From a candidate division Kazan bacterium RIFCSPHIGHO2_01_FULL_44_14 (lineage in GTDB: Bacteria; Patescibacteriota; Kazan-3B-28): 64,000 nt of DNA. Numbering within the stretch: the first letter of the stretch is position 1; the number at the start of each line of letters is the position of its first letter. The notes below the pieces were generated by a model. That model had not been told where the DNA came from and made no database searches. It saw only the letters and a list, made by a program, of their open reading frames with translations. The stretch is from NCBI GenBank assembly GCA_001771185.1, contig METB01000001.1:631200-695199 (forward strand). The letters run 5' to 3'. A program made the position numbers and the translations under genes. Shown here in pieces: positions 5,475 to 63,815 of the stretch.

Positions 5475-5515
5475 CTTAGTAGGACTTATAGAATGAATTA
5501 AGAATTCTCTCTTTT

Positions 5516-5716
5516 TCCTACCGGCCCTTCAGTGAAGGGTTGTTCTGAATTGAGCTAAATCATTGCCGCGAAGCCACTGTTTAAGGAGCGAAGCGACGAG
5601 TTTGGCTGTAAGCGGAAAAATGATTTAGCCAATGAATAAGCCCGGAACTGTCCGGGCCACGGCTTTGGTTACTTTCACCAAGAGGAAAGTAACGGCGGGT
5701 TGAGCGTCGCCTAAAC
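5516..5716 (-). repeat. D-family structured 3'-end element, copy 1 (minus strand, downstream of lepB)
   Basis: Its reverse complement carries the H1 hairpin gttactttcctcttggtgaaagtaac, then ...ccgggcttattcattgg, the 10-bp helix ctaaatcatt/aatgatttag, and ctcaattcagaacaacccttcactgaagggccgg. Confidence 0.75.
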
Positions 5717-5724
5717 GCTCAAAA

Positions 5725-10187: not shown

Positions 10188-10262
10188 CAATTAAATCACA
10201 AATCACAAATCACAAACAAAAAGTTAAATTACAAATTTCAAATAACAAATAACAAAAAAGTT

Positions 10263-17979: not shown

Positions 17980-18268
17980 AACTTCTGTTGTGTCAAATGG
18001 TAAGGAGTTACCCTTCGCCGGACGCTACGGGTGATCTGCGAGTGACGGTAAGGAGAATGTTATAATTAATAAATAACAAACAAAAAGTTAAATCACAAAT
18101 CTCAAACAACAAACAACAAACAAATTACAAATAATAATGACCGAAACAAGAACAGTTTAGAGCATTGGAATTTAGAATTTGTTTGAGATTTGGAGTTTGA
18201 TTATTGATTATTACACGCGATGAATAAGCATAAATTACAAAATTGAGGAGTAAGAATCTTTATATCTG

Positions 18269-19606
18269 ATGGATTTAAAGCAATTAGAGGACAATCTGTA
18301 CACTTGGCAGTCAGCCCTGGAGAGACGAGGGGCGGAAGTGGATTTGAACAAAGTATTAGAGGCGCATAAGTGTTATCTTGAGTTATTGCAAAAGTCCGAG
18401 GAATTGAGAGCTAGACGCAACACGGCGGCTCGGGCCCAAGATATTGAAGCAGGTAAGCCCTACTCCGCTGAAGCTACGAAGGGTCTGCGACAGGCAAAGG
18501 GTTTATTGAAAGAAATGGAAGACGAGTTGGCTACAGCTAAAGCAGAGTTGGACGAATTAGTGGCCGGAATTCCCAATCTACCTAGTGGTGATATTCCTGA
18601 CGGAGGGGAAGAAAATAATAAGGTCTTGGGAGTGGTGGGGAAACCGCGAACCATCGATAATCCCAAAGACCACATTGAATTAGGTGAAGGCCTGGGGATT
18701 TTGGATATTGAGCGAGGGACCAAGGTCTCGGGCGCTCGGTTTTATTATTTGAAAAATCAGGCAGTCGAATTGGAATTTGCGATTGTTAGATGGTTGATGG
18801 ACTTATTGAAAGAGAAAGGATTTGAACTGCTGATAGGTCCAGAACTTTTAAATGAAAAGGCGATGTTGGCAGGCGGATATTTGGGTAAAGCTGTGGACGA
18901 AGTTTACAAAACTCAAGATGAATTATATTTGATTGGTACGGCCGAACAAAGTATTTTGGCTTATCATTTGGATGAAATTGTTCCCGTTCCCAAACGATAT
19001 GCTAGTTTTTCAACTTGCTTTCGGAGAGAAGCTGGTAGTTACGGAAAAGATGTGAAAGGAATTATTCGAACGCATCAGTTCGATAAAATCGAAATGTTTT
19101 CGTTTGTGGCGCCGAGTATGTCGGCTCGGGAACATGAATTTTTAGTATCAATTCAAGAAGAAATTTTGCAAGGACTGGAAATTCCATATCAGAAAGTGCT
19201 ACTGGCGGCGGGGGACTTGAGTATGGCTTCGGCCAAGACGATTGATTTGGAAAGTTGGTTGCCGTCACAGAATCGGCATCGGGAAACCCATAGTTGTAGT
19301 AATTGCACTGATTGGCAGGCGAGACGGGCGAAGATTCGTTACAGGGAGCAAGGTAGTCCCTCCCAACTACGCCAAGGCTTCGATGGGCAGGCGGTTCCTC
19401 GGGATAACATAAAAAATGACTTCCTGACGAATGGAGGGGGTACTACCGGTAACAAGCCAGAGTTGGTTCATACGCTAAACGGTACAGCGGTAGCGATTGG
19501 GCGTATACTTGTGGCTATACTGGAAAACCATCAACAGATAGATGGGAGCGTGATTGTCCCTAAAGTTCTGCATCCGTATTTGAGTTTTAAGGAAATTAGA
19601 CCATGA
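18269..19606 (+). CDS. serS: Seryl-tRNA synthetase
   Basis: It has the N-terminal coiled-coil arm and class II motifs (FRREAGS..., [22 protein letters not shown]). An in-frame repeat insertion lies at 19352-19403. Confidence 0.9.
19352..19403. repeat. B-family repeat copy inserted in-frame in serS (encodes [18 protein letters not shown])
   Basis: It is near-identical to 2111-2164 in ileS. Confidence 0.8.
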
Positions 19607-22352: not shown

Positions 22353-22469
22353 TCACCTAAATTTCTAATTTCTAATTTCGAATCAAATTCCAATGACTGA
22401 ATGTTTCAAAATTAAGACATTAGGTCATTCACTCAAAATTCAAAATTCATCATTCAAAATTATATTTAT
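22353..22469. repeat. C-family hairpin element, copy 1, flanked by an 18-bp direct repeat of a palindrome (cctcttaagataagaggg at 22335-22352 and 22470-22487)
   Basis: Core caatgactgaatgtttcaaaattaagacattaggtcattc, with atttctaatttcgaatcaa on the 5' side and aaaattcaaaattcatcattcaaaatt on the 3' side. Confidence 0.75.
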
Positions 22470-32343: not shown

Positions 32344-33264
32344 TTGTTGGATATGTTAATTTATTTAAATAGAATTTTGCGATCGGCGATGTCGGGTTTT
32401 AAACGCAACGGCTGGTTGTCGTTGGTGGCGGTATTTATTATGACTCAGGCCTTATTATTAATCAGTATTTTTGCGTCGTTAAATTTAGTCATTGGGGCTT
32501 CAATCCAGGCAGTAAATGAACGAATTGATGTGGCGATATTCTTTAAAGAAACAGTCAATCAGAGCGAAGCAATAACATTAAAAAGTCAGGTGGAACAAAT
32601 TGATGGGGTGAAACAAGTGATTTATGTTTCTTCTCAAGATGCATTGGCTAAGTTTTTGGCTGATCATCGCAATCGGGACTCGATTTTGGGAGTGGTGTCT
32701 AAAGATGAAAATTTCCTGCCAGCTAGTTTAGAGGTAAAAGTGACTGACCCGTATCTGATTGAGGGGATAGTTGGCCAAATTACTAAAGGTGAAGGAGGTG
32801 AGTTGATTTCACAGACCAGCTTGGAAGATAACCAAAAATTGATTGAACAGTTGCGCAATTTTGGCGGTTTTGTCCAACGATCTAGTTTACTGCTGGCATT
32901 AGCATTAATTATTATTGCGTTGTTGATTATTTTCAATACAATTCGGATTACCATTTTTACGCGAAGAGAAGAAATCGAAATCATGAAATTGGTAGGGGCA
33001 ACCGATTGGTATATCCGTTGGCCATTTATTATTGAAGGAATGCTATACGGCATAATTGCTACTGCCTTGTCGTTGGTTTTGCTGTATATCGGTTATTTGA
33101 CACTAGCCAAGCCGATGGTGGCGAATTATCTAATATCGACTACTGACAGTCCAGTGTTTACGGTTGGTTTTTTTGCTTTTTTGGCAATTTTGCAATTGGT
33201 AGTTGGGCTGGTGGTGGGCGGAGTTAGCAGTTATTGGGCTACGCGTAAACATCTTCATGTATAA
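32344..33264 (+). CDS. ftsX: Cell division permease FtsX
   Basis: Four TM segments, a periplasmic loop, and a position immediately after ftsE. Confidence 0.85.
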   Translation: MLDMLIYLNRILRSAMSGFKRNGWLSLVAVFIMTQALLLISIFASLNLVIGASIQAVNERIDVAIFFKETVNQSEAITLKSQVEQIDGVKQVIYVSSQDALAKFLADHRNRDSILGVVSKDENFLPASLEVKVTDPYLIEGIVGQITKGEGGELISQTSLEDNQKLIEQLRNFGGFVQRSSLLLALALIIIALLIIFNTIRITIFTRREEIEIMKLVGATDWYIRWPFIIEGMLYGIIATALSLVLLYIGYLTLAKPMVANYLISTTDSPVFTVGFFAFLAILQLVVGLVVGGVSSYWATRKHLHV

Positions 33265-33387
33265 AATAATTACAAATTAAAAATTAAAAATGACAAATGA
33301 AAAATAATAATCAAAGCCCAAACTGCTTAGAAATTGGACATTAGAAATTATTTAGAAATTAGAACTTAGATATTAGAAATTTATTGT

Positions 33388-34562: not shown

Positions 34563-34642
34563 GAATTTCTAATTTCTAATTTCGAATCAAATCCCAATGA
34601 CTGAATGCTCCAAAATTAAGACATTAGGTAATTCATTCGACC
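34563..34642. repeat. C-family hairpin element, copy 2
   Basis: atttctaatttcgaatcaaatcccaatgactgaatgctccaaaattaagacattaggtaattc. Confidence 0.7.
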
Positions 34643-34671
34643 CATTCCCGCTTTGTCTTATATTTTTTTGT

Positions 34672-34745
34672 CATCCTGAGCGAAGTCGAAGGATCTATCT
34701 TTCTTCTACGTCATCCTGAATTTATTTCAGGATCTATTTTTATTT
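34672..34745. repeat. A-family partial elements (two gtcatcctga heads)
   Basis: gtcatcctgagcgaagtcgaaggatct ... gtcatcctgaatttatttcaggatc. Confidence 0.6.
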
Positions 34746-34751
34746 TCTTTT

Positions 34752-34940
34752 TTCAAGCGTTCACGCCCCGCTTGACCGGGCGGTTACTTTTCTGGAAAAG
34801 TAACTCAAAAGCTTCCGCCAGTTCGTCGGGTCTATTCATTGGCAAAAGGACTGGGCGCTCCCGGCGGTATAACCGCCTCCGCCCACTAGCCCTTTTGCTC
34901 AATTCAGAACAACCCTCCTCCAATGGCCGGATAGGAGAAA
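34752..34940 (+). repeat. D-family structured 3'-end element, copy 2 (after the M23 peptidase gene)
   Basis: ttcaagcgttcacgccccgcttgaccgggcgg; H1 gttacttttc-tgg-gaaaagtaac; gtcgggtctattcattgg; helix gcaaaagg...ccttttgc enclosing ggcggt-ataa-accgcc; ctcaattcagaacaaccctcctccaatggccgg. Confidence 0.8.
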
Positions 34941-35217
34941 GGAGAGAAGATAAACCTCGTTACGAAGGGCCAAGTTGGGATTTAGGATTTAGGGTTTGGG
35001 ATTTGTTTAGAAATTAGATATTAGGATTTAGAATTTAACCAGGATTGACTGGTTTCTTGCTACAATGTATCTGTTATACAGGGGAGCGGGTGAGTTTTGG
35101 GTATGGCATAATTGTCCAATTTGTCATTGCGAGTCCTGCTGTCCAGCAGGACGTGGCAATCTAGATTGCTTCATCGCCGACTCTTCGCAATGACGACTAA
35201 GTAAAGTTTCTAATAAT

Positions 35218-41608: not shown

Positions 41609-42052
41609 GTGGAGGAATATGTGGATAATGTTTTTATCGGTGAATATACGCATGTACTAGACAGCAAGGGCCGACTTGCTATTCCTGTTAAGTTTAAAAA
41701 ATTGTTAACCAAAGGTGCGGTAGTGACCAAGGGGTTAGATGGTTGTCTTTTCCTTTATACCGAATCCGAATGGGCGAAGTTGGTGGCTAAGCTTAACCAG
41801 ATGCCCATTTCTCAAGGTAATGCGCGGGCATTCGCTCGGTTGATGTTAGCGGGAGCCATGCCGGTAACCTTGGACGCACAGAACCGCATCAATTTACCAA
41901 ATTATTTGATTGCCTTTGCTGGATTGAAAACTACTGCCGTGTTGGCTGGTCTAATGAATCGTCTGGAAATCTGGGACACCAAGAAGTGGGAGACCTACAA
42001 AAAGAAGACCGAGCCAGAGTCCGAGAAAATCGCCGAGCAGTTGTTTATTTAA
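41609..42052 (+). CDS. mraZ: Transcriptional regulator MraZ
   Basis: It has duplicated SpoVT/AbrB-like halves (DSKGRLAIP...). The SD ggagg lies 5 nt upstream. Confidence 0.9.
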   Translation: MEEYVDNVFIGEYTHVLDSKGRLAIPVKFKKLLTKGAVVTKGLDGCLFLYTESEWAKLVAKLNQMPISQGNARAFARLMLAGAMPVTLDAQNRINLPNYLIAFAGLKTTAVLAGLMNRLEIWDTKKWETYKKKTEPESEKIAEQLFI

Positions 42053-42053
42053 A

Positions 42054-42177
42054 AATCTTAATCCGTGAGTAATCCGAATTTATTTCGGATTACGAACCCC
42101 TCGAAAAGGGGAGGCAGTCCCGGCAAGCCGGGATGTCGGAAGGGGAAAAACCTGAATAATGGTTTTGCCCCTCCGAG
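42054..42177 (+). repeat. H-family structured element, copy 1 (between mraZ and rsmH)
   Basis: Stems gtaatccgaa/ttcggattac, tcccggc/gccggga and ggggaaaaacc/ggttttgcccc. Copy 2 keeps the same stems with different sequence (compensatory changes). Confidence 0.7.
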
Positions 42178-42336
42178 GATAGTTTAAAAATTAATTCCCG
42201 TTTATGTGGCCGATAACTTAACACAATTAGTTATCTAGCTATTATCCGCAACTTTTCACCTCCAACAACTTAGTTTACCCACCCCTGGGCAAACAAAAAA
42301 ACAATCTGAGTTGTCGGCCACATAAAAATATTAACA

Positions 42337-42459
42337 ATCTTAATAAGTGAGTAGCCCGAATTTATTTCGGACTACGAACTCCTCGAAAAGGGGAGGCAGG
42401 TCCGATTTATCGGACTGTCGGAAGGGGAAAAACCTGAATAATGGTTTTGCCCCTCCGAG
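42337..42459 (+). repeat. H-family structured element, copy 2 (ends 8 nt before the rsmH ATG)
   Basis: gtagcccgaa/ttcggactac, gtccga/tcggac, ggggaaaaacc/ggttttgcccc. A 16-bp inverted repeat (42203-42218 and 42309-42324) lies between the two copies. Confidence 0.7.
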
Positions 42460-43343: not shown

Positions 43344-43769
43344 ATGAAACCGCGGTTCAAAATCAATTTCAATTTAGGTAGACGGATAAGAATGCGGCCA
43401 ATGTCATTGACTTATTTGGCCGTGGGAACATTTTTTGTGGTCGGATTTATCTATGTAGTGGTGGTCAATGTGGTGTCTAACAAGGGAACTGAACTGCGGA
43501 TGTTGGAAATTGAAAATGGTAATTTGGCCAATGATAATGATCGGTTAGATGTAGAAGCGGCCAGGTTGAAATCGTTGAGTGTGATTGAAGATAACGCATC
43601 GGGCGAAGTCAATGTCGGGAACTTGGAGCCGACCAATCCAAACAGCACAACCCCAACCGCAACAACCGATAAACAGGTAGTGGCGGTGGTGCCAAAAGCG
43701 GTACCAAAATTAGTTAGGACTCAAAGCCAGCAGTATTTGCCGAGTTATACAGTATTGGCTCAAAGGTAA
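43344..43769 (+). CDS. FtsL-like cell division protein
   Basis: It has a single TM and a coiled-coil, and occupies the ftsL position after rsmH. Confidence 0.55.
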   Translation: MKPRFKINFNLGRRIRMRPMSLTYLAVGTFFVVGFIYVVVVNVVSNKGTELRMLEIENGNLANDNDRLDVEAARLKSLSVIEDNASGEVNVGNLEPTNPNSTTPTATTDKQVVAVVPKAVPKLVRTQSQQYLPSYTVLAQR

Positions 43770-43797
43770 CTTTTCTGACCGTATAACGACGGTCAAT

Positions 43798-43975
43798 CCG
43801 TTGCTACTTTTGTCTTGCCAAAAGTAGCCAAAAGCGTGGCCCGGACAGTTCCGGGTCTATTCATTAGTTAAACTGCTGGGCGCTTTCGCCGAACTCGCCT
43901 TCGGCTCAAACAACGGCTTCGCCCCAAGCAATTTAACTTAATTCAGAACGACCCTTCACTGACGGGCCGGATGAT
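43798..43975 (+). repeat. D-family structured 3'-end element, copy 3 (after the ftsL-like gene)
   Basis: H1 gctacttttg-tcttgcc-aaaagtagc; ccgggtctattcatt; helix agttaaa...tttaact; cttaattcagaacgacccttcactgacgggccgg. Confidence 0.75.
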
Positions 43976-43986
43976 ATACTCGTGGT

Positions 43987-44472
43987 ATGGAACGGCATAA
44001 GCGATTGAAAAACTTAGAGGCGACAGAACAGTATTTGTTCCATGGGTCACCTGATGAAATAGGGGAATTGGAACCTCGTCAGCCGTATATTTTTGATAAG
44101 AAGCAAAACAAGATGGTGCCAGACGGTGAGCCAGCAGTGGTGGCGTCCCCATATTCGGACGTAGCGATTTTTAGAGCAATTGTGAACAAGAAAAACATTC
44201 CTGAAAAGCATTGGAGTGGATTCGGGTATGATGGCGAAAATAAAAAACTGAAGTTTAGAATGTCTCGGAGTACTGCTGATACGGCTAAGGAAGCCAAAGG
44301 GTATGTTCATGTATTAAATAGGAACGAGTTTACGCCAAAGAGTCCAGAAAGACCCGAGGGGATGGAGTGGCGGTCTGATAAAAGTGTAAAACCAGTTGAG
44401 ATTGTCGAGGTAACAGCCGACTATTTGCCAGAAGATATTTCGATTGAGCCGGACCCATCTGAAAATCAATAA
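43987..44472 (+). CDS. Hypothetical protein inserted between the ftsL-like gene and ftsI
   Basis: It is a 161-aa ORF with an acidic C-terminus and no recognised family. Confidence 0.4.
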   Translation: MERHKRLKNLEATEQYLFHGSPDEIGELEPRQPYIFDKKQNKMVPDGEPAVVASPYSDVAIFRAIVNKKNIPEKHWSGFGYDGENKKLKFRMSRSTADTAKEAKGYVHVLNRNEFTPKSPERPEGMEWRSDKSVKPVEIVEVTADYLPEDISIEPDPSENQ

Positions 44473-44528
44473 TTTGTGATTTGTTATTTGAAGTTTGGAA
44501 TTTACTCATTAGTTTATAATGAGTAGGT

Positions 44529-46259
44529 ATGCTAGATAGGGCGACGACATTGCAGTTAGAACAAAGGTACCGGATTGGTTTTGTTAGTACCGCGTTTTTC
44601 ATATTGTTTGTAATGGCGACAGGTAGATTAATTGAACGCCAGGTATTTGAGCATGGCTATTTTGTGCGGTTAGCCAAAGAACAGCATTTGGCCAGCCAGG
44701 TGGTACCAGCGCAGAGGGGCAGGATTTTTACGGAGGAATCAGACGGTAGTGGCTTGTATCCGTTGGCGACCAATGTGTCGTTGTGGGCTTTAACCGCAGT
44801 TCCGGCGCAGATTCGTCAGCCGGAATTGGTGGCGAGTAAGTTGATGCCGTATTTAGCCGGTTCGGGAATCGAAGAAAGTGAGTTAATCGGTAAACTCTCC
44901 AGCAAGTCCCAATATATTCCACCATTAAAACGAAAGATCGGTGAAGAGGAAGCGACGGCAATTAACGCGCTGGATTTGACCGGAGTGTATTTGACGCAAG
45001 AGAAGTATCGTTATTCGCCAGAAGAAACTATGGCGGCGCAAGTGTTGGGATTTGTAAACCGAGATGGTGAGGGCCAATACGGCTTGGAGGGATATTTTGA
45101 TAAAGAACTGGGCGGTAAAGCCGGATTCCTAGAATCCGAGCAGGACACTTTTGGTCGGCAAATTGCATTAGGCAAACGCGAAGAAGTGAACCCAGAAAAT
45201 GGATTAGATCTTGTGGTGACGCTCGATCGAGCGGTGCAATATTATGTCGATAAAGCCGTCAAAGAATCGGTTGAAAAACATCAAGCTGAACGAGCCACAG
45301 CGATTGTGATGGAACCGCAGACCGGCAAAATAGTTGCCATGTCATCTTATCCAACTTTTAATCCGAATAATTACAACACAGAAGATATTGCTAACTTCAC
45401 CAATTCGAATATTTCCCAGGTGTATGAGCCGGGGTCAGTGTTTAAAGTGATTACGATGGCAGCCGGAATTGACGCAGGGCTAGTGGCGCCGAGTACAACT
45501 TATACTGACATTGGTGAAGTCCAGGTGGATGACAGAACAATTAAAAACTCTGACCTGAAAGCCCACGGTCAGCAGACCATGACTCAAGTATTGGAAGCAT
45601 CACTGAATACGGGTGCAGTGTTTGTGGTGCAGAAACTGGGGAAGTATTTATTTAATAAATATCTGGGTCAATTTGGTTTTACCCATCTGACTGGAATTGA
45701 TTTAAAAGGTGAAGTAGATGCGCAGATTAAAGATGTTCGCCAAGTCAGAGATGTCGATTTGGCGACGATGGCGTTTGGACAAGGAATTGCGGTGACGCCA
45801 ATCCAGATGTTAGCGGCGGTAGGGGCAATTGCTAACGATGGGCGATTAATGAAACCGCATATTGTCGATCGGATTTTGTATCCTTCAGGAGCGGTGTCGA
45901 TCGACCCAGTGGTGGAGGGGCAAGCAATTAGTTCGCAAACTGCCCAATTAGTTTCGGCCATGATGGTGAGTGTGGTGGAAAATGGACATGGTCAAAAGGC
46001 CGGTGTGCCGGGGTATTGGATCGCTGGCAAAACTGGTACGGCCCAAATACCCAGCCCGAACGGAGGATACTTGGATGGGTTTGGTAACACTATCGGGACT
46101 TTTGTTGGGTTTGGGCCAGTCGAGAATCCGAGGTTTGTGATGTTGACCCGGGTAGATAAACCAAAAGATGTGCAATTCGCGGAAAGTAGTGCCGCACCAC
46201 TGTTCGGACAGATTGCAAAGTTTTTGTTGGATTATTGGAGAATTCCTCCGACGAGGTGA
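44529..46259 (+). CDS. ftsI: Penicillin-binding protein (FtsI-type transpeptidase)
   Basis: It has an N-terminal TM and the motifs SVFK, SLN and KTGT. Confidence 0.9.
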   Translation: MLDRATTLQLEQRYRIGFVSTAFFILFVMATGRLIERQVFEHGYFVRLAKEQHLASQVVPAQRGRIFTEESDGSGLYPLATNVSLWALTAVPAQIRQPELVASKLMPYLAGSGIEESELIGKLSSKSQYIPPLKRKIGEEEATAINALDLTGVYLTQEKYRYSPEETMAAQVLGFVNRDGEGQYGLEGYFDKELGGKAGFLESEQDTFGRQIALGKREEVNPENGLDLVVTLDRAVQYYVDKAVKESVEKHQAERATAIVMEPQTGKIVAMSSYPTFNPNNYNTEDIANFTNSNISQVYEPGSVFKVITMAAGIDAGLVAPSTTYTDIGEVQVDDRTIKNSDLKAHGQQTMTQVLEASLNTGAVFVVQKLGKYLFNKYLGQFGFTHLTGIDLKGEVDAQIKDVRQVRDVDLATMAFGQGIAVTPIQMLAAVGAIANDGRLMKPHIVDRILYPSGAVSIDPVVEGQAISSQTAQLVSAMMVSVVENGHGQKAGVPGYWIAGKTGTAQIPSPNGGYLDGFGNTIGTFVGFGPVENPRFVMLTRVDKPKDVQFAESSAAPLFGQIAKFLLDYWRIPPTR

Positions 46260-46262
46260 ATA

Positions 46263-46516
46263 GTCCAAGCGCAAGCTGGCGCTTGACCCAGCACAGACGA
46301 GCGCCACATCGCGCTCGACCGATGGGCACTTTGGCTTGTCAAAGTGCCATAAATCGCTTTCGCAGTCGCTCTCGTTATTCATCACAACTAATTCCCTTAC
46401 TGCTCTCGCCAAACTCCCCCTCGACTACGCTCGGGGTCAAACAGTTGGCTTCGCAACGGGAATTAGTTGGATTCAGGACATTCGAGCTCCAATGCTCGGT
46501 TAAGAAGGAATTGTCT
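46263..46516 (+). repeat. D-family structured 3'-end element, copy 4 (after ftsI; diverged subtype)
   Basis: tccaagcgcaagc...gcttgacc; H1 ggcactttg-gcttgt-caaagtgcc; ttattcatcac; cagttggcttcgcaacggg; aattagttggattcaggacattcgagctccaatgctcgg. Confidence 0.75.
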
Positions 46517-46678
46517 AACCCATGATTCGTAATTCGTGATTCATGATTCTGGCTTGGTTCGATGCATCTTTACTTACCCGCTAACCTGCTGTTCTAATTT
46601 TTCCTTGTCTGGGGGCGTCACAGCACCAGTCGCTAGCCCTCCGGTGCATGACACCGATTTTTAGCGTATTATTGGAGG

Positions 46679-47935
46679 ATGAAGATCTTTGCTCTCAATC
46701 TGTTGGTGGGGTTGGCCAGACGGATATTGGTTAAATTCCAGCCCCGAATTATTGGGGTGACGGGAAGTGTGGGCAAGACCACGACCAAGGAAGCCATTTA
46801 CACCGCCTTGCGCGGAAGTTTTCGAGTGGCGCGGAGTTTGAAGAATGCTAATACTGAATGGGGAGCGACGGCGACAATCCTTGACCAGAATTTCCATCCC
46901 CAAGTAGATGGTCTGGGTCGAGCTAAAATTACACCTGGGCAGATGGTGCGGTTGGTTTGGCAGGGTTGCAGATGGTTAATGAGAAAGGGCGGTTATCCGG
47001 AAATTTTGATATTAGAGTTGGCGGCGGATCGGCCGGGCGATATTAAATTTTTCAATCGACTTTTGCAGTATAACATCGCGGTGATTACCAATATCGGTCA
47101 AGTACACTTGGAGTTTTATAAAGACCAGACCGAGTTGACCGCCGAAAAATTGGCTTTAGCGGATGGACTAAAAACAGGTGGTCTTTTGGTATTGAATGGT
47201 GACAATGATTTGATGCGGGATTTTGTGGAGACAACCTCATCCCGCAAAGTGACTTTTGGGTGGGAGGACACGAATAATTATTTTGCTTCCCTACAAGATA
47301 TTACGACCGAGGGCTTACGGTTTGAGGTGCATACGCCGAAGGGTGACGAAGTGATGGCATTTGGGTTTGGTCGTCAGGTGGTCCCAGCGGTTTTAGTTGG
47401 GTTGGCAGTTGGGCAAGAATTAGGGATTCCTCTTCAAGTAATGACTGGACGACTGGCTTCGTTTGGTTCGCTGACTGGCCGATTTGAGATTGAGTATTTA
47501 AATCGCGGGATTATGCTAGTTAATGATGCTTACAATGCAAATCCTGATTCAATGAAATCGGCATTAACTAGTTTGCAGGATATTGCCTCGATCAGAGACG
47601 AGCAAGGCCCTCCGAGTCCTCGGCGTAGGAGAGTGGCAATCCTCGGTGGAATGCGAGAACTGGGTTCGGCTCATGATAGCGCTCACCGGGAAGTCGGCCG
47701 GTTTTTGCGGGACAAAGTTGATTTGTTGATTGCTATTGGTGAGGATGGGATGTTAATGGCAGAAGCGGCGCAAACATCTGGTTTGACCGAAAATCAGATT
47801 ATTTTAGTGCCGGAAATTGGTCAGGTAGATTTTTCTAAATTTTTGCAGGATAATGATGCCGTGTTGGTAAAGGCCTCGCGCAGTTTCGGGTTGGATAAGG
47901 TGGCGCAATTAATTAAACAACGCATTGGGAAATAG
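46679..47935 (+). CDS. murF: Mur ligase, MurF-type (UDP-MurNAc-tripeptide--D-Ala-D-Ala ligase) lacking the N-terminal domain
   Basis: It has the P-loop GVTGSVGKTTTKE and the MurF hallmark DAYNANPDSM. Confidence 0.65.
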   Translation: MKIFALNLLVGLARRILVKFQPRIIGVTGSVGKTTTKEAIYTALRGSFRVARSLKNANTEWGATATILDQNFHPQVDGLGRAKITPGQMVRLVWQGCRWLMRKGGYPEILILELAADRPGDIKFFNRLLQYNIAVITNIGQVHLEFYKDQTELTAEKLALADGLKTGGLLVLNGDNDLMRDFVETTSSRKVTFGWEDTNNYFASLQDITTEGLRFEVHTPKGDEVMAFGFGRQVVPAVLVGLAVGQELGIPLQVMTGRLASFGSLTGRFEIEYLNRGIMLVNDAYNANPDSMKSALTSLQDIASIRDEQGPPSPRRRRVAILGGMRELGSAHDSAHREVGRFLRDKVDLLIAIGEDGMLMAEAAQTSGLTENQIILVPEIGQVDFSKFLQDNDAVLVKASRSFGLDKVAQLIKQRIGK

Positions 47936-48968
47936 TCCATCTGAATTAGTTTTGCAAATTACTCTGCTTCGGGTATTTATTTTGGCTGGGTTGGGATTTT
48001 TTGTGGCGATTTTGGCAACTCCGTTTTGGATTAATTTTTTGTATAAATATAAGTTTTGGAAACAGGCCAAGGAAGAAACGATTTATGGAACAAAAGCCAC
48101 GGTATTTCAGCAGTTGCATGCCGAAAAGCACAAACGGAATATCCCGACGATGGCGGGAGTGTTGTTTTGGGTAATTGTGTTGGCGCTGTCGTTGAAGTTT
48201 AATTTAACTCGGTCGCAAACTTATTTGCCGTTGTTTGCGCTGGTTTCGGTTGGAATTATTGGGGCGGTGGATGATTGGTTTAATATTCGGGGAATCGGCA
48301 GAATCAAAGGAATCCGAGCTCGACAAAAAATGGCTTGGTTATTGGTGATGGCGGGCCTGGGGGCTTGGTGGTTCTATGAAAAATTAGGTCAACACAGTAT
48401 TCATTTACCTGGAATCGGAGATTTCTTGGTGGGGTGGTGGTATATTCCGATTTTCATTATCATTATCCTAGCGACTGCCAATGCGTTTAATATTACTGAT
48501 GGGTTGGACGGATTGTCGGGTGGATTGTTCGTGATCGCTTATGGGGCGTATGGGATTTTGGCCCTGGCAAATAATCAAGTTAGTTTGGCCATTTTCTGTG
48601 CCACGGTGGTGGGGGTGCTATTGGCTTATCTTTGGTTTAATATTTATCCGGCCAGATTCTTTGGCGGTGATACTTATTCGTTAGCGTTCGGAGCAACCTT
48701 GGGGGTAGTGGCGATGTTGATTAACAGGGGAACTGGTGTAGCCGTTTTGCCGTTAATTGCTTTTGTGCCACTGCTTGAAACTTTGTCGGTAATCATCCAG
48801 CTGACTTATCGGAAGTTGTATAAAAAGAAATTGTTTTTAGTGGCCCCAATTCATCATCATTTCGAGGCGATTGGTTGGCCAGAAACCAAAGTAACAATGC
48901 GGTTCTGGGTAATTGGAGCCGTATTTGCAACGATGGGATTGGTAATCGGGTTGGTTGGTGCTGGTTAA
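47925..48968 (+). CDS. mraY: Phospho-N-acetylmuramoyl-pentapeptide transferase
   Basis: It is polytopic, with the motifs NAFNITDGLDGL and PIHHHFE. Confidence 0.9.
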   Translation: MGNSPSELVLQITLLRVFILAGLGFFVAILATPFWINFLYKYKFWKQAKEETIYGTKATVFQQLHAEKHKRNIPTMAGVLFWVIVLALSLKFNLTRSQTYLPLFALVSVGIIGAVDDWFNIRGIGRIKGIRARQKMAWLLVMAGLGAWWFYEKLGQHSIHLPGIGDFLVGWWYIPIFIIIILATANAFNITDGLDGLSGGLFVIAYGAYGILALANNQVSLAIFCATVVGVLLAYLWFNIYPARFFGGDTYSLAFGATLGVVAMLINRGTGVAVLPLIAFVPLLETLSVIIQLTYRKLYKKKLFLVAPIHHHFEAIGWPETKVTMRFWVIGAVFATMGLVIGLVGAG

Positions 48969-48971
48969 TTT

Positions 48972-49195
48972 AAATGAGCGCAGGGTGGCGCTCAACCCAC
49001 CGTTACTTTCCTCTTGGCGAAAGTAACCAAAGCCGTCTCCGCAGTCGCCCTCTTTATTCATCACAACTAATTCCCTTACTGCTCTCGCCAAACTTGCCCC
49101 GACCTAAAGGTCGGGTCTTCGAACAGTTGGCTTCGCAACGGAAATTAGTTGGATTCAGAACACTCGGGCTCCAATGCTCGATTAAGAGGGGATAG
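48972..49195 (+). repeat. D-family structured 3'-end element, copy 5 (after mraY; same subtype as copy 4)
   Basis: H1 gttactttcc-tcttggc-gaaagtaac. The remaining ~130 nt are about 85 % identical to copy 4. Confidence 0.75.
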
Positions 49196-49250
49196 TAACT
49201 ACTCGATGGGTCCCAATAAGATTGATACCCCGAATCCGCCAACTGGCGGA

Positions 49251-49340
49251 CTAATTTCGAATCAAACTCGAATGACTGAATGCTTCAAAATTAAGACATT
49301 AAGATATTTACTCAAAATTCAAAATTTGTCATTCAAAATT
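49251..49340. repeat. C-family hairpin element, copy 4
   Basis: ctaatttcgaatcaaactcgaatgactgaatgcttcaaaattaagacattaag...caaaatttgtcattcaaaatt. Confidence 0.7.
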
Positions 49341-49438
49341 ACTTATACTCCAATATTCAGTATCTTCTCCCCCCTAAGATAAGGGGAGGTAGGGTGGGGT
49401 CATATGGGTGCAAATTGGCTCTGGGGGAGGGTTTTGGC

Positions 49439-49467
49439 TTGACGGTAGGTGGGAATAGGAGTATAAT
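49439..49467 (+). promoter_or_regulatory. Promoter for the DGR target gene (TTGACG-17-TATAAT)
   Basis: -35, a 17-nt spacer, and a perfect -10. A homologous promoter is at 63862-63890. Confidence 0.6.
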
Positions 49468-49571
49468 CAAGGTGTAAGGTGGGCCTGTAATTTTCAGGGA
49501 TATCAACCATCAGCACCTTGAAGACTAGTTCTGCAAAACTGGCCAGCAAGGCGAACCAGAAGGAGACTAGG

Positions 49572-50624
49572 ATGAACATCCTGGCCGCTATTAGTGTCGT
49601 ATTGAAATTTCTCGAAGCTTTGATTGTTGCTAATCAAGACAAAGATGGTCATTTCTCCCGGGTGAGTGAGTTGCTTACACAGCTCAAGTCGCTCGGCGAA
49701 GAGCCCCTCTCTCGTCTGATGCAGCGGATTAATGTTGTTGGCTTGGTGCTGAGCCGGGTCAGCATCCCCAGTTACGAAGAGTTTCAGGGGTTCGTGGACA
49801 CACAGGTTCTTTCCTGGCTACCGAAGCCGTCCCGTACACCAACCCGACTCAAGGGCAATTGGCAGAACGAACGACTGAAGGTGCAGAAGAAAGCCTGGGC
49901 CGTAATCGGGGTCGAGCTTCCGCAGGATCTTTGTGATGAGTTCGTTGCAATCCTAAACAAGTGTGGCGCCGAATTGGTAGCGACCCTCGAGGCGTATGGC
50001 TTCATGTTTGTTATCACGCCGGATATCACTTGGACCGTCAACACTTGGCCTGCCAAGTGGGTTAAGCTCAACAACTGGTTCTGGCAGATTCTGGGTAGCG
50101 GACGTCTCCTCAAAGAGGATGACACCGTAATCCAGCACTGCAAGCTCCAACGCCAGGTCCTGCTAATCGATACACGCAAGAAGCCTGTCTATGCTGACGG
50201 TCGTCAGTGTTGGGACAAGGATGTGTTCATGGAGGCTCTAATCGGGTGGCTTCAAGACCAAAAGAAACTGCCTATCGACAGCACCTGCGGTCGTGGTAGT
50301 CGCTTCCGCTTAAGCCGCAACGACTATACAAAGGTTGTGGCTCCAGCTTTATTAGAGGCGCTTCAACAGCTCGGTTGTCCGGCTCAAGCCGTTCGGTTGG
50401 AATACTGTCCGGAGCATTCTGCTTTCTGCCAGCTGTTTGATGCCCCCCGCAAGGATAGTGGAAAGACAACCACTTGGCTGTGGTTCCAAGAGCGACTGGA
50501 CTCGTCCGGGCACTCGCTGCATAGCGGGGTCTCCGGCAGCGGTGGTCTGGCGTTCGTCAGTTTCAACAATTCCGACTACCGCTGGAACAACGTATCTGCT
50601 TCGCTCGTGGCAGTTATGGTCTAG
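49572..50624 (+). CDS. DGR variable (target) protein; the C-terminal ~41 codons are the variable repeat
   Basis: The SD aaggag lies 8 nt before the ATG. The 3' 123 nt (50493-50615) match the downstream TR except at TR adenines. The C-terminus is ...WLWFQERLDSSGHSLHSGVSGSGGLAFVSFNNSDYRWNNVSASLVAV. The TTG at 49518 is an alternative start. Confidence 0.7.
   Translation: MNILAAISVVLKFLEALIVANQDKDGHFSRVSELLTQLKSLGEEPLSRLMQRINVVGLVLSRVSIPSYEEFQGFVDTQVLSWLPKPSRTPTRLKGNWQNERLKVQKKAWAVIGVELPQDLCDEFVAILNKCGAELVATLEAYGFMFVITPDITWTVNTWPAKWVKLNNWFWQILGSGRLLKEDDTVIQHCKLQRQVLLIDTRKKPVYADGRQCWDKDVFMEALIGWLQDQKKLPIDSTCGRGSRFRLSRNDYTKVVAPALLEALQQLGCPAQAVRLEYCPEHSAFCQLFDAPRKDSGKTTTWLWFQERLDSSGHSLHSGVSGSGGLAFVSFNNSDYRWNNVSASLVAVMV
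50493..50615 (+). repeat. DGR variable repeat (VR)
   Basis: Of 123 nt, 112 are identical to TR. All 11 mismatches sit at positions where TR has A (VR has C, T or G). Confidence 0.85.
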
Positions 50625-50668
50625 GCCATTTTGGGCGTTTGGATTTTTTGGAATTTGGTATCATCCCC

Positions 50669-50698
50669 GAGCGGGGTTGCTTGCAACCCCGCTCTTTT
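50669..50698 (+). terminator. GC-rich hairpin directly downstream of VR (gagcggggtt-gcttgc-aaccccgctc + TTTT); a DGR target-recognition hairpin and/or terminator
   Basis: A 10-bp perfect stem lies 54 nt after the end of VR, with a T-tract. Confidence 0.7.
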
Positions 50699-50922
50699 CA
50701 TATACTGATGTAGATGCGGCAGTGAATAGATACTTTGGTATCTATCGTCGCTCTCCCTTTTGGGACCAGCCAGAGTTTATAAACTCAAGTAGTTTATAAA
50801 GAGTGCTAAACCTAAAAGAGAAACTGCGTATCTGCTACTCAGTCTCATGAAGTGAGGCGCATAAAATACAGGCAGAACATCTTGTTTGTTTGCCAGTGCT
50901 AAAGGATGGTGGCAGATACTAA

Positions 50923-51045
50923 CGACTGGACTCGTCCGGGCACTCGCTGAATAGCGGGGACTCCGACAACGGTGGTCTGGCGAACGTCAATTACAACAAT
51001 TCCGACAACCGCTGGAACAACGAATCTGCTTCGCTCGTGGAAGTT
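50923..51045 (+). repeat. DGR template repeat (TR)
   Basis: It is the non-coding cognate of VR, has the same length, and is adenine-rich at the mismatch positions. Confidence 0.85.
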
Positions 51046-51065
51046 TCTCGCATTAGGTAGGTAAA

Positions 51066-51089
51066 GGGGGCGGGGGTCACCTCGCCCCC
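51066..51089. terminator. Hairpin gggggcg-ggggtcacct-cgccccc overlapping the avd stop codon
   Basis: A 7-bp GC stem lies between TR and the convergent avd gene. Confidence 0.5.
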
Positions 51090-51382
51090 TTAGTCGTAGT
51101 TTTAATCCAACCTCCCAGCATTTTTCCTATTTCTTGTAGCTTAGTTTGGAGGGTTAGATAATACTTTTCGTTAAGTGCCTGCACCTCATAACCCAAGCGG
51201 ATTTGTAGCTTCACTAAATCCAGCAAGGCACTCGCTCTAAATAGTATCTCCACCCTGGAGCGTTCAGGAGTGGAGGAGGCCGTCAGGACACATTCCACTA
51301 ACTCCAATATCTTCGCTTGGGTCATCTGGCCCAGACTGTATCGCTCAATTTTGGGATATTTCAAAAGATGTCCATGAAACAA
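51077..51382 (-). CDS. avd: DGR accessory variability determinant (Avd-like four-helix-bundle protein)
   Basis: It is ~100 aa and basic, with a C-terminus ...EIGKMLGGWIKTTTKGAR that resembles Bordetella phage bAvd ...EVGRILGSWIARVNRKGQ. It lies between TR and the RT but on the opposite strand. Confidence 0.65.
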   Translation of the reverse strand: MFHGHLLKYPKIERYSLGQMTQAKILELVECVLTASSTPERSRVEILFRASALLDLVKLQIRLGYEVQALNEKYYLTLQTKLQEIGKMLGGWIKTTTKGAR

Positions 51383-51503
51383 TTTGTAAAACTCGAAGAG
51401 CTGATAAACGATTGGGATTTCACCAAATCCGTCCGGGGGGGGGCTTAATAGGAAGGTTATTTTCCATACTGGTGTTTTTGAAGAAATTATTTCGTTAGAG
51501 AAT

Positions 51504-52616
51504 TTGTTTTTGGCTTGGAGGGAGTTTCGGAAAGGTAAACGAGGTAAGTTAGATGTCCAAGCGTTCGAGCTTCATCTTGAAGATAACATATTTGCTCTTT
51601 ACGAGGAGTTAGCGGGTGGAGATTATTGCCACGGTGGCTATCATCAGTTTCGCATCTCCGACCCGAAATCTCGCTTGATTAGTAAGGCGTTGGTTCGGGA
51701 TAGGTTGCTCCACCACGCTATCTGCCGAATCTTGTATCCGGTTTTTGATCGAACCTTTATCTTTGATAGCTACTCTTGTCGAAAGAATAAAGGGACGCAT
51801 AAAGGATTCTTTCGGTTAGCCGAGATGGCTCGAAAAGTCAGTAGAAACTATACTGGTCCGTGCTGGGCGTTGAAGTTGGATATTCGGAAGTTTTTCGACA
51901 GTGTCGATCATAGTGTGTTGATGGGGCTGTTAAGAGGGCGCATTGCCGACGAGCGACTGCTGGGGTTATTGGGGAATATTATTGGTAGCTTCCCTATGCG
52001 TCATTCTGAACGCAGTGAAGAATCTAGCGGTAGCGTTCTGCTGTACAGCAGAACTAGATCCTTCGCTAACGCTCAGGATGACAGGAGGAGAGTTCAGGAT
52101 GACGAGAGGAGAGTTAAGGATGACAAAGGAGCGGGCGGGGATGACGAAGGTGGCAAGGGGATGCCATTGGGGAATCTGACCTCACAATTATTTGCCAATA
52201 TCTATCTGGATCCATTAGATAAGTTTGCGAAACATCACTTAAGAGCTAAATATTATCTTCGCTATGCCGATGACTTTATTTTCTTGGCCGATAACCCAGA
52301 CGAACTAATGGGCTATTTTGTGGAGGTAAATCAGTTTTTGAAAATCAAGCTAAAGCTTAATCTTCATCCAAATAAAATCTCTCTCCGAAAATTGGACTGG
52401 GGAATTGACTATGTTGGGTATGTGGCATTGCCACATTACGCTGTTCCCAGAAGCAAAACGGTTACCCGGATTGTTAAAAAGATTCGTCGACTTGTAGTGA
52501 TAGGTGACGAAGCAACTTTGACTAAAGCAATGCCGTCATATTTAGGGTATCTTGAGCATACTAGTAGCTACCGAGTGAGGCGACGGTTAGAGGGAGTAGT
52601 CGAGAGGATACCATAA
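51504..52616 (+). CDS. DGR reverse transcriptase
   Basis: It has RT motifs ...LKLDIRKFFDSVDH..., the DGR-specific PLGNLTSQLFANIYL (LGxxxSQ in place of the group II QGxxxSP), and YADDFIFLAD. The conserved N-terminal motif FEEIISLENLFLAWREFRKGKR begins upstream at ~51477, where no ATG/GTG/TTG is in frame. An in-frame A-family repeat insertion lies at 52016-52150. Confidence 0.85.
   Translation: MFLAWREFRKGKRGKLDVQAFELHLEDNIFALYEELAGGDYCHGGYHQFRISDPKSRLISKALVRDRLLHHAICRILYPVFDRTFIFDSYSCRKNKGTHKGFFRLAEMARKVSRNYTGPCWALKLDIRKFFDSVDHSVLMGLLRGRIADERLLGLLGNIIGSFPMRHSERSEESSGSVLLYSRTRSFANAQDDRRRVQDDERRVKDDKGAGGDDEGGKGMPLGNLTSQLFANIYLDPLDKFAKHHLRAKYYLRYADDFIFLADNPDELMGYFVEVNQFLKIKLKLNLHPNKISLRKLDWGIDYVGYVALPHYAVPRSKTVTRIVKKIRRLVVIGDEATLTKAMPSYLGYLEHTSSYRVRRRLEGVVERIP
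52016..52150. repeat. A-family mini-element inserted in-frame in the DGR RT (encodes RHSERSEESSGSVLLYSRTRSFANAQDDRRRVQDDERRVKDDKGAGGDDEGG)
   Basis: gtcattctgaacgcagtgaagaatctag ... tcaggatgacagg, then a 4x tandem aggatgac tail. Its 5' part is near-identical to 13329-13360. Confidence 0.75.
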
Positions 52617-52620
52617 TACC

Positions 52621-52723
52621 AAATTTCTAATTTCGAATTTCTAATCAAATCTAAATGACTGAATGTCTCAAAATTAAGATATTAGGTCATTCATTTAAAA
52701 TTCAAAATTTGTCATTCAAAATT
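52621..52723. repeat. C-family hairpin element, copy 5 (after the RT)
   Basis: aaatttctaatttcgaatttctaatcaaatctaaatgactgaatgtctcaaaattaagatattaggtcattc... Confidence 0.7.
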
Positions 52724-62537: not shown

Positions 62538-62545
62538 TCAAAGTA

Positions 62546-63570: not shown

Positions 63571-63588
63571 CAGAATCTTTTTTATTTT

Positions 63589-63815
63589 TTCAAGCGTTCA
63601 CGCCCCGCTTGACCGGGCGGGCACTTTGTCTTGGCAAAGTGCCTCAAACCGCCCCGCCAGTTCGTCGGGTCTATTCATTGGCTAAATCCTTAGGGCGCTC
63701 TCGGCGGTATAGACCGCCTCCGCCCTTCCGTCGGCTGACGGACAGGATTTAGCTCAATTCAGGACGACCCTCCTCCAATGGCGGACGGGAGAGGGGGAAA
63801 AAGACGAATCCACGC
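63589..63815 (+). repeat. D-family structured 3'-end element, copy 6 (after ftsQ)
   Basis: The first 32 nt (ttcaagcgttcacgccccgcttgaccgggcgg) are identical to copy 2. H1 is ggcactttg-tcttg-gcaaagtgcc. The helix gctaaatcct...aggatttagc encloses ggcggt-atag-accgcc, followed by ctcaattcaggacgaccctcctccaatggcgg. Confidence 0.8.

What the first reader, a model, noticed from the sequence alone, without database searches (positions are those of the whole stretch)
34752..34940. A ~200-nt structured element family at gene 3' ends (six copies), with compensatory stem changes
The copies lie at 5516-5716 (minus strand, after lepB), 34752-34940 (after the M23 peptidase), 43798-43975 (after ftsL-like), 46263-46516 (after ftsI), 48972-49195 (after mraY) and 63589-63815 (after ftsQ). 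Each sits immediately downstream of a gene and in that gene's orientation.

The copies share conserved single-stranded blocks: tYcaagcg...gcttgacc, tattcat, and aattcagRacNaccctYc...ggccgg.

Their helices differ in sequence yet stay base-paired: H1 is gttactttYc/gRaaagtaac, ggcactttg/caaagtgcc or gctacttttg/caaaagtagc, and a second 8-10-bp helix is gcaaaagg/ccttttgc, gctaaatcct/aggatttagc, ctaaatcatt/aatgatttag or agttaaa/tttaact. Covariation of this kind implies selection on RNA structure.

Several copies are followed directly by promoters. The family looks like a REP/Correia-type 3'-UTR module (terminator, stabiliser or processing site), or an uncharacterised small RNA family.
Basis: seen in the sequence. 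Interest (0 to 1): 0.7.

Follow-up and report, generated by a model that had tools for sequence, protein, structure and literature searches.

The report
Structured 200-nt intergenic repeat of CPR bacteria
The six copies are real members of an undescribed family of about 200-base, intricately folded RNA-like elements scattered between housekeeping genes of tiny-genome CPR bacteria (Kazan, Saccharibacteria and relatives); their fold is strongly preserved by evolution but their function is not yet known.

Summary
A covariance model finds exactly six copies in the window (164-190 bits), all in the sense of the upstream gene. No Rfam 15 family matches, even at E<=10.

The window comes from a relative of candidate division Kazan. 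Pattern scans found about 30 further distinct copies, all in CPR genomes or in metagenome contigs.

The fold has a 5' hairpin S1 that overlaps a second helix S2. A CUUG-capped hairpin P1 follows, then an irregular rod of about 40 bp carrying conserved bulges, then a purine-rich tail. Covariation is strong: 96% of cells pair and 28 of 35 pairs show double changes. It holds on a structure-blind alignment too. G-U pairs outnumber A-C mismatches 39 to 9, which points to the sense RNA strand.

Copies at orthologous sites (after ftsL, mraY, ftsQ) persist with compensatory changes. Other copies are present in one genome and absent in a relative, and copies are mosaics of shared modules. Flanking genes are unrelated housekeeping genes, and no transposase lies nearby.

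Best reading: a co-transcribed structured RNA module that has spread as a repeat, comparable to ERIC or BIME elements but much more elaborate. Its function is inferred, not shown.

The parts
34734..34949 (+). The flagged copy, 'type iii', with these parts:
- T-rich leader 34734-34752
- S1 34753-34759 / 34769-34775
- S2 34765-34768 / 34778-34781
- P1 34782-34805 (loop CTGG)
- x 34815-34820, pairing with x' 34924-34930
- Pj 34828-34832 / 34911-34915
- UAUUC 34833-34837
- P3 34838-34849 / 34891-34903
- UCA bulge and GAA 34904-34909
- purine-rich tail 34931-34949
   Evidence: R1 164.2 bits; sequence read; helices. The copy is absent from the orthologous 55-nt M23-S41 spacer of Kazan GW2011.
5512..5724 (-). 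Copy after lepB (S26 signal peptidase), 'type i'. S1 starts 4 nt after the stop codon.
   Evidence: R1 176.9 bits; sequence; Pfam. Its 5' module is 92% identical to that of the mraY copy (I2).
43771..43975 (+). Copy after the ftsL-like gene, 'type i'. S1 starts 7 nt after the stop codon, and the copy ends about 12 nt before the next ORF's ATG.
   Evidence: R1 181 bits. An orthologous copy lies after ftsL in Kazan GW2011 (L010:7272-7483), with compensatory changes.
46265..46512 (+). Copy after ftsI, 'type ii'. An extra duplicated S1/S2 module (46265-46294) precedes the full element (46297-46509).
   Evidence: R1 181.7 bits; sequence. It is absent from the 139-nt ftsI-murE spacer of Kazan GW2011. 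Its closest relative, L009:2918-3126 (86% identity), sits elsewhere in that genome.
48970..49196 (+). Copy after mraY, 'type ii'. S1 starts 7 nt after the stop codon.
   Evidence: R1 190.2 bits. Orthologous copies lie after mraY in L016 and in Kazan GW2011 (L020:757-970).
63580..63805 (+). Copy after ftsQ, 'type iii', 168 nt past the stop codon and preceded by a T-rich leader.
   Evidence: R1 186.1 bits; sequence. An orthologous copy lies after ftsQ in L019.

Best explanation
**What it is.** The elements are copies of a family of about 200-nt structured RNA modules, so far found only in CPR/Patescibacteria.

**How it is made and folds.** Each copy is transcribed in the sense orientation as part of the flanking operon. 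The RNA folds into:
- a 5' module: hairpin S1, helix S2 that overlaps S1, and the CUUG-capped hairpin P1;
- a long irregular rod (x/x', Pj, UUC/GRA, P3, P4) whose bulges carry the invariant nucleotides;
- a purine-rich tail.

**How it most likely works (inferred).** The fold is a recognition platform for a conserved cellular factor, a nuclease or an RNA-binding protein. That factor would define, separate or protect transcript ends between neighbouring housekeeping genes. The mutually exclusive pairings at both ends make the module a conformational switch. The switch could respond to a ribosome terminating 4-7 nt upstream, and it could expose or hide the SD-like tail.

**How it spread.** The family multiplied by duplicative insertion and by recombination between copies, which explains the mosaics and the gain and loss between relatives. 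Many copies were then retained under purifying selection.

**Shown:** the family, its fold, the folding strand, its distribution, and retention and turnover of copies. **Inferred:** transcription, the cis-acting role, and the switch.
For: **Real family.** Six copies at 164-190 bits in the window. Thirty-five matches, 33 of them distinct, over the window and 25 fetched loci.

**Covariation on the model-fitted alignment.** 96.2% of cells pair against 72.3% in shuffles. 28 of 35 pairs have changes on both sides. Slid controls give 28-50% pairing.

**Covariation on a structure-blind MAFFT alignment.** 90.4% against 69.0% pairing, a covariation score of 0.547 against 0.197, and 23 of 31 pairs with double changes.

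**Further helices.** S2 occurs as about a dozen different but complementary sequences. Pj occurs as at least 8.

**Folding strand.** G-U/U-G 39 against A-C/C-A 9.

**Orientation.** All six window copies follow the sense of the upstream gene, including the single minus-strand copy. Most copies elsewhere are co-directional with a neighbour.

**Retention in place.** Copies after ftsL, mraY and ftsQ persist in genomes whose RsmH is 77% and FtsL 60% identical at the protein level. Double compensatory changes outnumber broken pairs: 4 to 3, 9 to 4 and 7 to 0.

**Neighbours.** Flanking genes are unrelated housekeeping genes, with no transposase or nuclease partner. Some copies lie in the spacer after the 16S rRNA gene.
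Against: - There are no expression data, so transcription and processing are unproven.
- Most 'type iii' copies lie behind a terminator-like hairpin plus T-tract. If that is a working terminator, co-transcription would be limited.
- Two copies (L009, L011) are antisense to both neighbours.
- Similarity does not follow position. The window mraY copy is 61% identical to the Kazan GW2011 mraY copy but 90% identical to a copy after an aminoacyl-tRNA synthetase gene in L023. Turnover or gene conversion could therefore mimic conservation in place.
- A simple hairpin would be enough to stabilise an mRNA, so this complexity suggests a more specific role that has not been identified.
- Pairing of the 5' leader with the 3' tail is no better than composition predicts.
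Confidence: 0.45

Rival explanations
1. It is a selfish, non-autonomous mobile element (MITE-like, or RNA-mediated). Its structure would be needed only for mobilisation, by a factor encoded elsewhere: a transposase acting on folded single-stranded DNA, or a reverse transcriptase. It would have no function for the host.
For: - Presence and absence differ between relatives. The ftsI and M23 copies are missing at the orthologous Kazan GW2011 sites.
- Near-identical copies sit at non-orthologous sites in different genomes (86-90% identity).
- Copies are mosaics (I1-I10, D18, D19).
- Partial or decayed copies exist.
- Many copies lie just after a terminator-like hairpin plus T-tract, or just after a stop codon, which are typical safe havens.
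- A reverse transcriptase is encoded in the window.
- The central domain is one long imperfect palindrome, as in many MITEs.
Against: - I saw no terminal inverted repeats and found no recognisable target-site duplication.
- No transposase was found beside any of about 30 copies.
- Intact copies persist at orthologous sites, with compensatory changes, in 0.6-Mb streamlined genomes.
- Orientation follows genes, and G-U pairs exceed A-C mismatches, which fits RNA better than DNA.
- The window's reverse transcriptase belongs to a textbook DGR.
Confidence: 0.25
2. It is a family of paralogous stable non-coding RNAs, cut out of operon transcripts, that act in trans or as the RNA part of a ribonucleoprotein. 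The three structural types would be functionally distinct paralogues.
For: - Invariant nucleotides are concentrated in bulges and junctions between covarying helices, as in RNP scaffolds and ribozymes.
- The three structural types (i, ii, iii) coexist in the window and in Kazan GW2011, and types ii and iii in a Saccharibacteria contig.
- Copies sit in highly expressed units: the rRNA spacer, next to rpsF, and after sigma-70 and aminoacyl-tRNA synthetase genes.
- Hairpins at both ends could protect a processed RNA.
Against: - Copies that start directly after a stop codon leave no room for a promoter of their own.
- Copy number and position vary between close relatives.
- Decayed copies exist.
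- No partner protein has been identified.
Confidence: 0.2
3. It is a cis-regulatory switch (riboswitch-like, or a translational-coupling device) that controls the downstream gene through the alternative pairings and the SD-like tail.
For: - Mutually exclusive helices occur at both ends in all three types: S1 against S2; Pj and x/x' against a local 3' hairpin.
- In several loci the tail abuts or overlaps the ribosome-binding site of the next gene. Spacings run from 6 nt (the FolD gene in L006) to 47-57 nt in other loci.
- The S1 5' arm lies within ribosome reach of the upstream stop codon in 8 copies.
Against: - The downstream genes share no function.
- Several copies face a convergent gene (5512, L007:5194, L015, L023), so there is no downstream gene to control.
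- Distances to the next start codon range from 6 to more than 300 nt.
Confidence: 0.08

Closest known systems
ERIC/IRU elements of enterobacteria (127-bp imperfect palindromes)
   Same: Both are intergenic and interspersed, and both are co-transcribed with flanking genes. Both have a long imperfect-palindrome core whose pairing is kept by compensatory changes. Presence varies between related genomes. ERIC elements are reported to affect mRNA fate in an orientation-dependent way (from my own knowledge, not checked here).
   Different: I saw no sequence resemblance. This element is about 200 nt and has an extra 5' module (S1/S2 and P1). It also has invariant bulge nucleotides, three structural types and a purine-rich tail. 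It spans several CPR lineages rather than one family of bacteria.
REP/BIME mosaic elements (and the REPIN/RAYT system)
   Same: Both lie in intergenic regions near gene ends and are built as mosaics of modules. In this window the element also coexists with small REP-like hairpins (GTCATYCY...RGRATC).
   Different: REP units are 20-40-nt simple palindromes, mobilised by a RAYT transposase. Here the unit is a 200-nt fold of many helices, and no RAYT-like gene was seen next to any copy. Whether such a gene exists elsewhere in these genomes could not be tested.
bcr1 and related Bacillus cereus-group repeats; BOX/RUP elements of pneumococcus
   Same: These are repeats of 100-200 nt with predicted conserved RNA structure. 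Some are mobile and some are fixed at conserved positions (from my own knowledge).
   Different: Different phyla and unrelated sequence. No specific target duplication was found here. The structure is more elaborate and is conserved across CPR lineages.
HEARO / IscB omega-RNA and IS200/IS605 omega-RNAs
   Same: These are multi-copy structured RNAs of about 150-300 nt that were found by comparative genomics before their function was known. They set a precedent for a repeat RNA turning out to be part of a mobile-element machine.
   Different: No Rfam hit at gathering threshold across the window, nor at E<=10 across 43700-49300. No IscB, TnpB or TnpA ORF lies next to any copy. No guide-like complementarity to the flanks was found.
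Group IIC introns
   Same: Both insert just after terminator-like hairpins or gene ends, in the sense orientation.
   Different: The element is 200 nt against at least 600 nt for an intron. I saw no domain V/VI, and no element copy has an Rfam group II hit. A 2026 survey reports no group II introns in Patescibacteria (PMC13011429).

Membership tests
Any Rfam 15 family | A covariance-model match at the gathering score, or at least a weak match at E<=10 | tested here: not met
   At gathering threshold the window yields only a tRNA. An E<=10 scan of 43700-49300, which covers three copies, gives only a chance snoRNA hit outside the elements. CPR loci yield only rRNA, tRNA and one weak group II fragment elsewhere.
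REP/BIME | A short (20-40 nt) imperfect palindromic unit | tested here: not met
   The unit is 188-218 nt and has at least 8 helices.
REP/BIME | An associated RAYT (Y1 transposase) in the genome | not testable with these tools
   Only 64 kb plus 8-kb loci are available. None of about 40 flanking ORFs scanned is a Y1 transposase.
MITE / Correia-type element | Terminal inverted repeats at the element ends | tested here: not met
   The 5' end is a T-run followed by S1, and the 3' end is a purine-rich tail. Only the composition of the two ends is complementary: the leader-tail duplex has mean z = +0.2 against shuffles. No terminal inverted repeat shows in the alignments.
MITE / Correia-type element | A target-site duplication flanking the insertion | tested here: inconclusive
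   Comparing the filled and empty ftsI-murE sites shows the insertion starts right after the stop codon, but the flanks are too diverged to read a duplication. No consistent matches between flanks were found.
IS200/IS605 PATE or TnpB/IscB omega-RNA | Adjacent or associated tnpA, tnpB or iscB, and a guide segment matching the flanking DNA | tested here: not met
   Flanking ORFs are housekeeping genes. The longest matches between an element and its flanks are 6-10 nt, with no consistent position.
Riboswitch or cis-regulatory leader | A position upstream of functionally related genes | tested here: not met
   Neighbours include signal peptidase, M23 and S41 peptidases, FtsI, MurE, MraY, FtsQ, aminoacyl-tRNA synthetases, UvrB, TrmD, KhpA, ribosomal protein S6, a UbiA-family protein, sigma-70, PCMT, RecO, FolD and 16S rRNA.
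Intrinsic terminator | A GC-rich hairpin followed directly by a U-tract at the 3' end of the element | tested here: not met
   The 3' end is purine-rich. The only terminator-like hits inside the elements are internal: P2 followed by UAUUCAUU, and S2.
Structured RNA under selection (generic) | Significant covariation on a structure-blind alignment, and an excess of G-U over A-C on one strand | tested here: met
   90.4% against 69.0% paired, with 0 of 500 shuffles reaching the observed covariation score; 39 G-U against 9 A-C.

The most novel reading that the evidence does not exclude
The element is a new class of large functional RNA restricted to CPR bacteria. It could be the RNA subunit or substrate of a still unknown machine: a processing 'punctuation' system for polycistronic transcripts, a ribozyme, or an RNA-based mobile element with three conserved structural types. 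It would not be a mere repeat.
Probability: 0.3. Interest if true: 0.85.

Novelty: new variant of a known kind. Interest (0 to 1): 0.68.

Why it matters
CPR/Patescibacteria make up a large share of bacterial diversity and have genomes of about 0.6-1 Mb, where non-coding DNA is scarce. These genomes nevertheless keep several copies of a 200-nt, multi-helix element inside core units such as the dcw cluster and the rRNA spacer. The element has invariant bulge nucleotides and switch-like alternative pairings that are conserved across the Kazan and Saccharibacteria lineages.

If it is functional, it would be one of very few lineage-specific structured RNAs known for CPR. It could show how these organisms delimit or process transcripts. 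If it is selfish, it is an unusual protein-less mobile element thriving in streamlined genomes. Both questions can now be tested with the covariance model and existing metatranscriptomes.

Tried and rejected
- **Rfam.** Gathering and E<=10 scans gave nothing.
- **Viral contigs.** The pattern gave one hit (L036, the same contig as L027), which is a chance match: the best R1 hit there is 3.4 bits and lies elsewhere on the contig.
- **Guide-like complementarity** between an element and its flanks. Only 6-10-nt matches turned up, with no pattern.
- **Leader-tail closing helix.** Duplex energies are no better than composition-preserving shuffles, mean z = +0.2.
- **Terminator role.** There is no 3' U-tract.
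- **Promoter association.** Only 2 of 6 copies have strong matches nearby, and counts are not above shuffles.
- **Riboswitch regulon.** Rejected because the neighbouring genes are heterogeneous.
- **Associated protein.** About 40 flanking ORFs were scanned in Pfam, and none recurs with the element.
- **S1 and S2 as a classical H-type pseudoknot.** The loop joining S1 to S2 is only 1-3 nt across a 7-8-bp S1. Both helices therefore cannot be fully formed together, and I read them as alternative or partly exclusive.
- **Literature.** Five full-text searches found no description of such an element. Two of them were too broad to be informative.
- **All-pairs covariation scan** on a raw MAFFT alignment. 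It largely failed because helices were out of register.

Full report

Reading the six stated intervals showed clearly related sequences. A MAFFT alignment gave 55-66% mean column identity with conserved blocks. I built a covariance model (R1) and ran it unfiltered over both strands of the window. It returned exactly six hits at 164-190 bits. The next hit scored 13.7 bits and overlaps a copy. A motif pattern found five of the six copies against 0.00 expected by chance.

The ftsL-like ORF has no Pfam hit.

Four copies start 4-7 nt after the stop codon of the upstream gene. For the ftsI copy this is the start of an extra duplicated 5' module at 46265-46294. The M23 and ftsQ copies lie 198 and 168 nt downstream, behind other repeats. 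All six copies have the sense of the upstream gene, including the single minus-strand copy after lepB.

**2. Where does it occur?**

The window's FtsI protein is encoded on metagenome contigs from JGI and ENA samples. One scan of 185,579 species genomes with the motif pattern hit only CPR genomes: candidate division Kazan (two genomes, one the complete 0.6-Mb GW2011_GWA1_50_15), two Saccharibacteria MAGs and one 'Patescibacteria group' MAG. A metagenome scan gave 23 loci.

R1 confirmed all loci but one as true copies and found further, more divergent copies nearby. A run over the window and 25 fetched loci gave 35 matches, 33 of them distinct. The single viral-contig hit is a chance pattern match.

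The window organism is a relative of Kazan GW2011. Its RsmH is 77% and its FtsL 60% identical at the protein level, and the gene order is the same.

No Rfam 15 family matches. This holds at gathering threshold for the window and the loci, and at E<=10 for a stretch with three copies. Five literature searches found no description.

**3. Anatomy**

From 5' to 3' the element has these parts:

- **T-run or T-rich leader.** It is 4-7 nt long after stop codons, and 20-25 nt long in most 'type iii' copies. There it follows a REP-like hairpin GTCATYCY...RGRATC.
- **S1.** A hairpin of 7-8 bp.
- **S2.** Four to five nucleotides in the S1 loop pair with the 4-5 nt immediately 5' of P1. About a dozen different but complementary S2 sequences were seen. 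The linker is only 1-3 nt, so full S1 and S2 cannot coexist. They are alternative or partly exclusive.
- **P1.** A hairpin of 9-12 bp with a conserved ACUUU/AAAGU stretch and a CUUG or CUAG tetraloop.
- **Linker.** CAAAGCCG.
- **A long irregular rod.** The inner helices enclose AACU, a variable hairpin and UCAAACAG.
- **Purine-rich tail.**

The R in AUUCAGRAC is explained because it pairs with a U (U-A 13, U-G 15).

Three structural types (i, ii, iii) differ in the x, Pj and 3'-hairpin region. In each type, the 3' strand of Pj can pair either upstream, closing the rod, or downstream, forming a local hairpin that includes CCUCC/GGAGG in type iii. So both ends show switch-like alternative pairings.

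**4. Is the structure selected?**

On the model-fitted alignment, 96.2% of 1107 cells pair against 72.3% in shuffles. Twenty-eight of 35 pairs change on both sides, and slid controls give 28-50% pairing. That alignment leans towards the structure, so I repeated the count on a structure-blind MAFFT alignment of 30 copies:

| Measure | Observed | Control |
|---|---|---|
| Cells paired | 90.4% | 69.0% (shuffles) |
| Covariation score | 0.547 | 0.197 (0 of 500 shuffles reach it) |
| Cells paired, partner slid by 1-3 columns | – | 36-56% |

Twenty-three of 31 predicted pairs have compensatory changes. G-U/U-G cells outnumber A-C/C-A cells 39 to 9. The folding strand is therefore the sense strand, which fits RNA.

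**5. Fixed or mobile?**

Both signals are present.

*Retention.* Copies occupy the same sites in related genomes: after ftsL (window and Kazan GW2011), after mraY (window, L016 and Kazan GW2011) and after ftsQ (window and L019). These genomes have coding DNA only about 72% identical. Between these copies, double compensatory changes outnumber broken pairs: 4 to 3, 9 to 4 and 7 to 0. A set between divergent rpsF and a UbiA-family gene is also conserved across four genomes.

*Turnover.*
- The ftsI and M23 copies are absent from the 139-nt and 55-nt orthologous spacers of Kazan GW2011.
- The closest relative of the ftsI copy (86% identity) lies between the der and pth genes in that genome. The mraY copy is 90% identical to a copy after an aminoacyl-tRNA synthetase gene in another organism.
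- Copies are mosaics. The 5' module of the lepB copy is 92% identical to that of the mraY copy, while their 3' parts belong to different types. The ftsI copy carries a duplicated S1/S2 module.
- Truncated copies exist.

**6. Context**

Flanking genes are unrelated housekeeping genes: peptidases, dcw genes, aminoacyl-tRNA synthetases, UvrB, TrmD, KhpA, ribosomal protein S6, a UbiA-family protein, sigma-70, PCMT, RecO, FolD, Der, Pth and SecF. Two lineages carry a copy in the spacer after the 16S rRNA gene. No transposase, IscB, TnpB or similar partner recurs.

Most copies are co-directional with a neighbouring gene. Two are antisense to both neighbours. These counts rest on crude ORF calls.

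There is no terminator anatomy at the 3' end. Strong promoter-like sites follow only two window copies, and a few copies elsewhere on inspection. No guide-like complementarity to the flanks was found. The leader-tail pairing is only compositional.

**7. Interpretation**

The combination of findings fits best a structured RNA module that has spread as a repeat and is kept because the RNA does something. The findings are sense-strand structure, gene-linked orientation, invariant nucleotides in bulges, intact copies retained at orthologous sites in streamlined genomes, and no regulon. The most likely role is as a recognition platform that delimits or protects transcripts between genes, with a switch at each end (confidence 0.45).

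A purely selfish, protein-less mobile element (0.25) and a processed trans-acting RNA or RNP family (0.20) remain serious rivals. A riboswitch-like regulator is unlikely (0.08).

The element works most like the ERIC, BIME and bcr1 types of structured interspersed repeat. It is not a member of any of them. It is much more elaborate and is spread across several CPR lineages. HEARO is the cautionary precedent for a 'repeat RNA' that later proved to be part of a machine.

**8. Verdict**

I rate it a new variant of a known kind, with about a 30% chance that it is a genuinely new class of functional RNA. Interest 0.68.

Noticed in passing
window 49518-52616 (block 49198-52761): A textbook diversity-generating retroelement sits inside the dcw cluster. 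It consists of a target ORF (49518-50624, 368 aa, no Pfam hit) with a variable repeat at 50493-50615, a template repeat at 50923-51045, and a reverse transcriptase ORF at 51504-52616 (RVT_1, 5.9e-20). All 11 mismatches within the repeat fall on template adenines. The whole block is missing in the related contig L016 and is bracketed by copies of the D1 repeat.
   Followed up: partly
window 22359-22462, 34563-34666, 49238-49341, 52621-52724, 62464-62567: A second repeat family (D1, 104 nt, 5 copies at 72-100% identity) lies just after gene ends. Two of its copies flank the retroelement block. Its nature is unknown.
   Followed up: no
window 34669-34697, 34710-34735, 52055-52083, 10305-10352, 13662-13709; also L008, L013, L014, L018, L019, L024-L026: Small REP-like hairpins (GTCATYCY...RGRATC) followed by a T-rich tract of about 22 nt recur in intergenic regions. 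They directly precede most 'type iii' copies of the 200-nt element in several genomes.
   Followed up: partly
window 42049-42177 and 42331-42459: A 129-nt direct repeat pair (87% identity) lies between mraZ and rsmH. Homologous sequence, partly inverted, is at the same place in Kazan GW2011 (L010:5627-5981).
   Followed up: no
window 43987-44472: A 161-aa ORF with no Pfam hit lies between the ftsL-like gene and ftsI. It is absent from the same position in Kazan GW2011, where ftsI follows the element directly.
   Followed up: no
window, many spacers (e.g. 6585-6746, 10186-10262, 18064-18138, 33245-33383, 34960-35040, 57816-57954): Runs of heptamer-like short repeats (AAATTAC/AAATAAC and GATTTAG/GGTTTGG types) fill many intergenic regions. 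This is unusually repeat-rich for a CPR-type genome.
   Followed up: no
window 2090-2177 and 19330-19417: An 88-nt repeat (81% identity) lies inside two long ORFs (1464-4529 and 18269-19606). A related motif (CTACGCC..GGCTTCG..) recurs reversed near 63520-63550.
   Followed up: no
L007:923-1123 / L028:7839-8039 and L021:3055-3267: In two CPR lineages a copy of the element lies in the spacer downstream of the 16S rRNA gene. In L021 a LAGLIDADG endonuclease ORF lies between the 16S 3' region and the element.
   Followed up: partly
window 1-64000: GC skew is strongly positive throughout, and nearly all genes are on the + strand. Orientation relative to replication and relative to transcription therefore cannot be separated within this window, apart from the lepB copy.
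   Followed up: no
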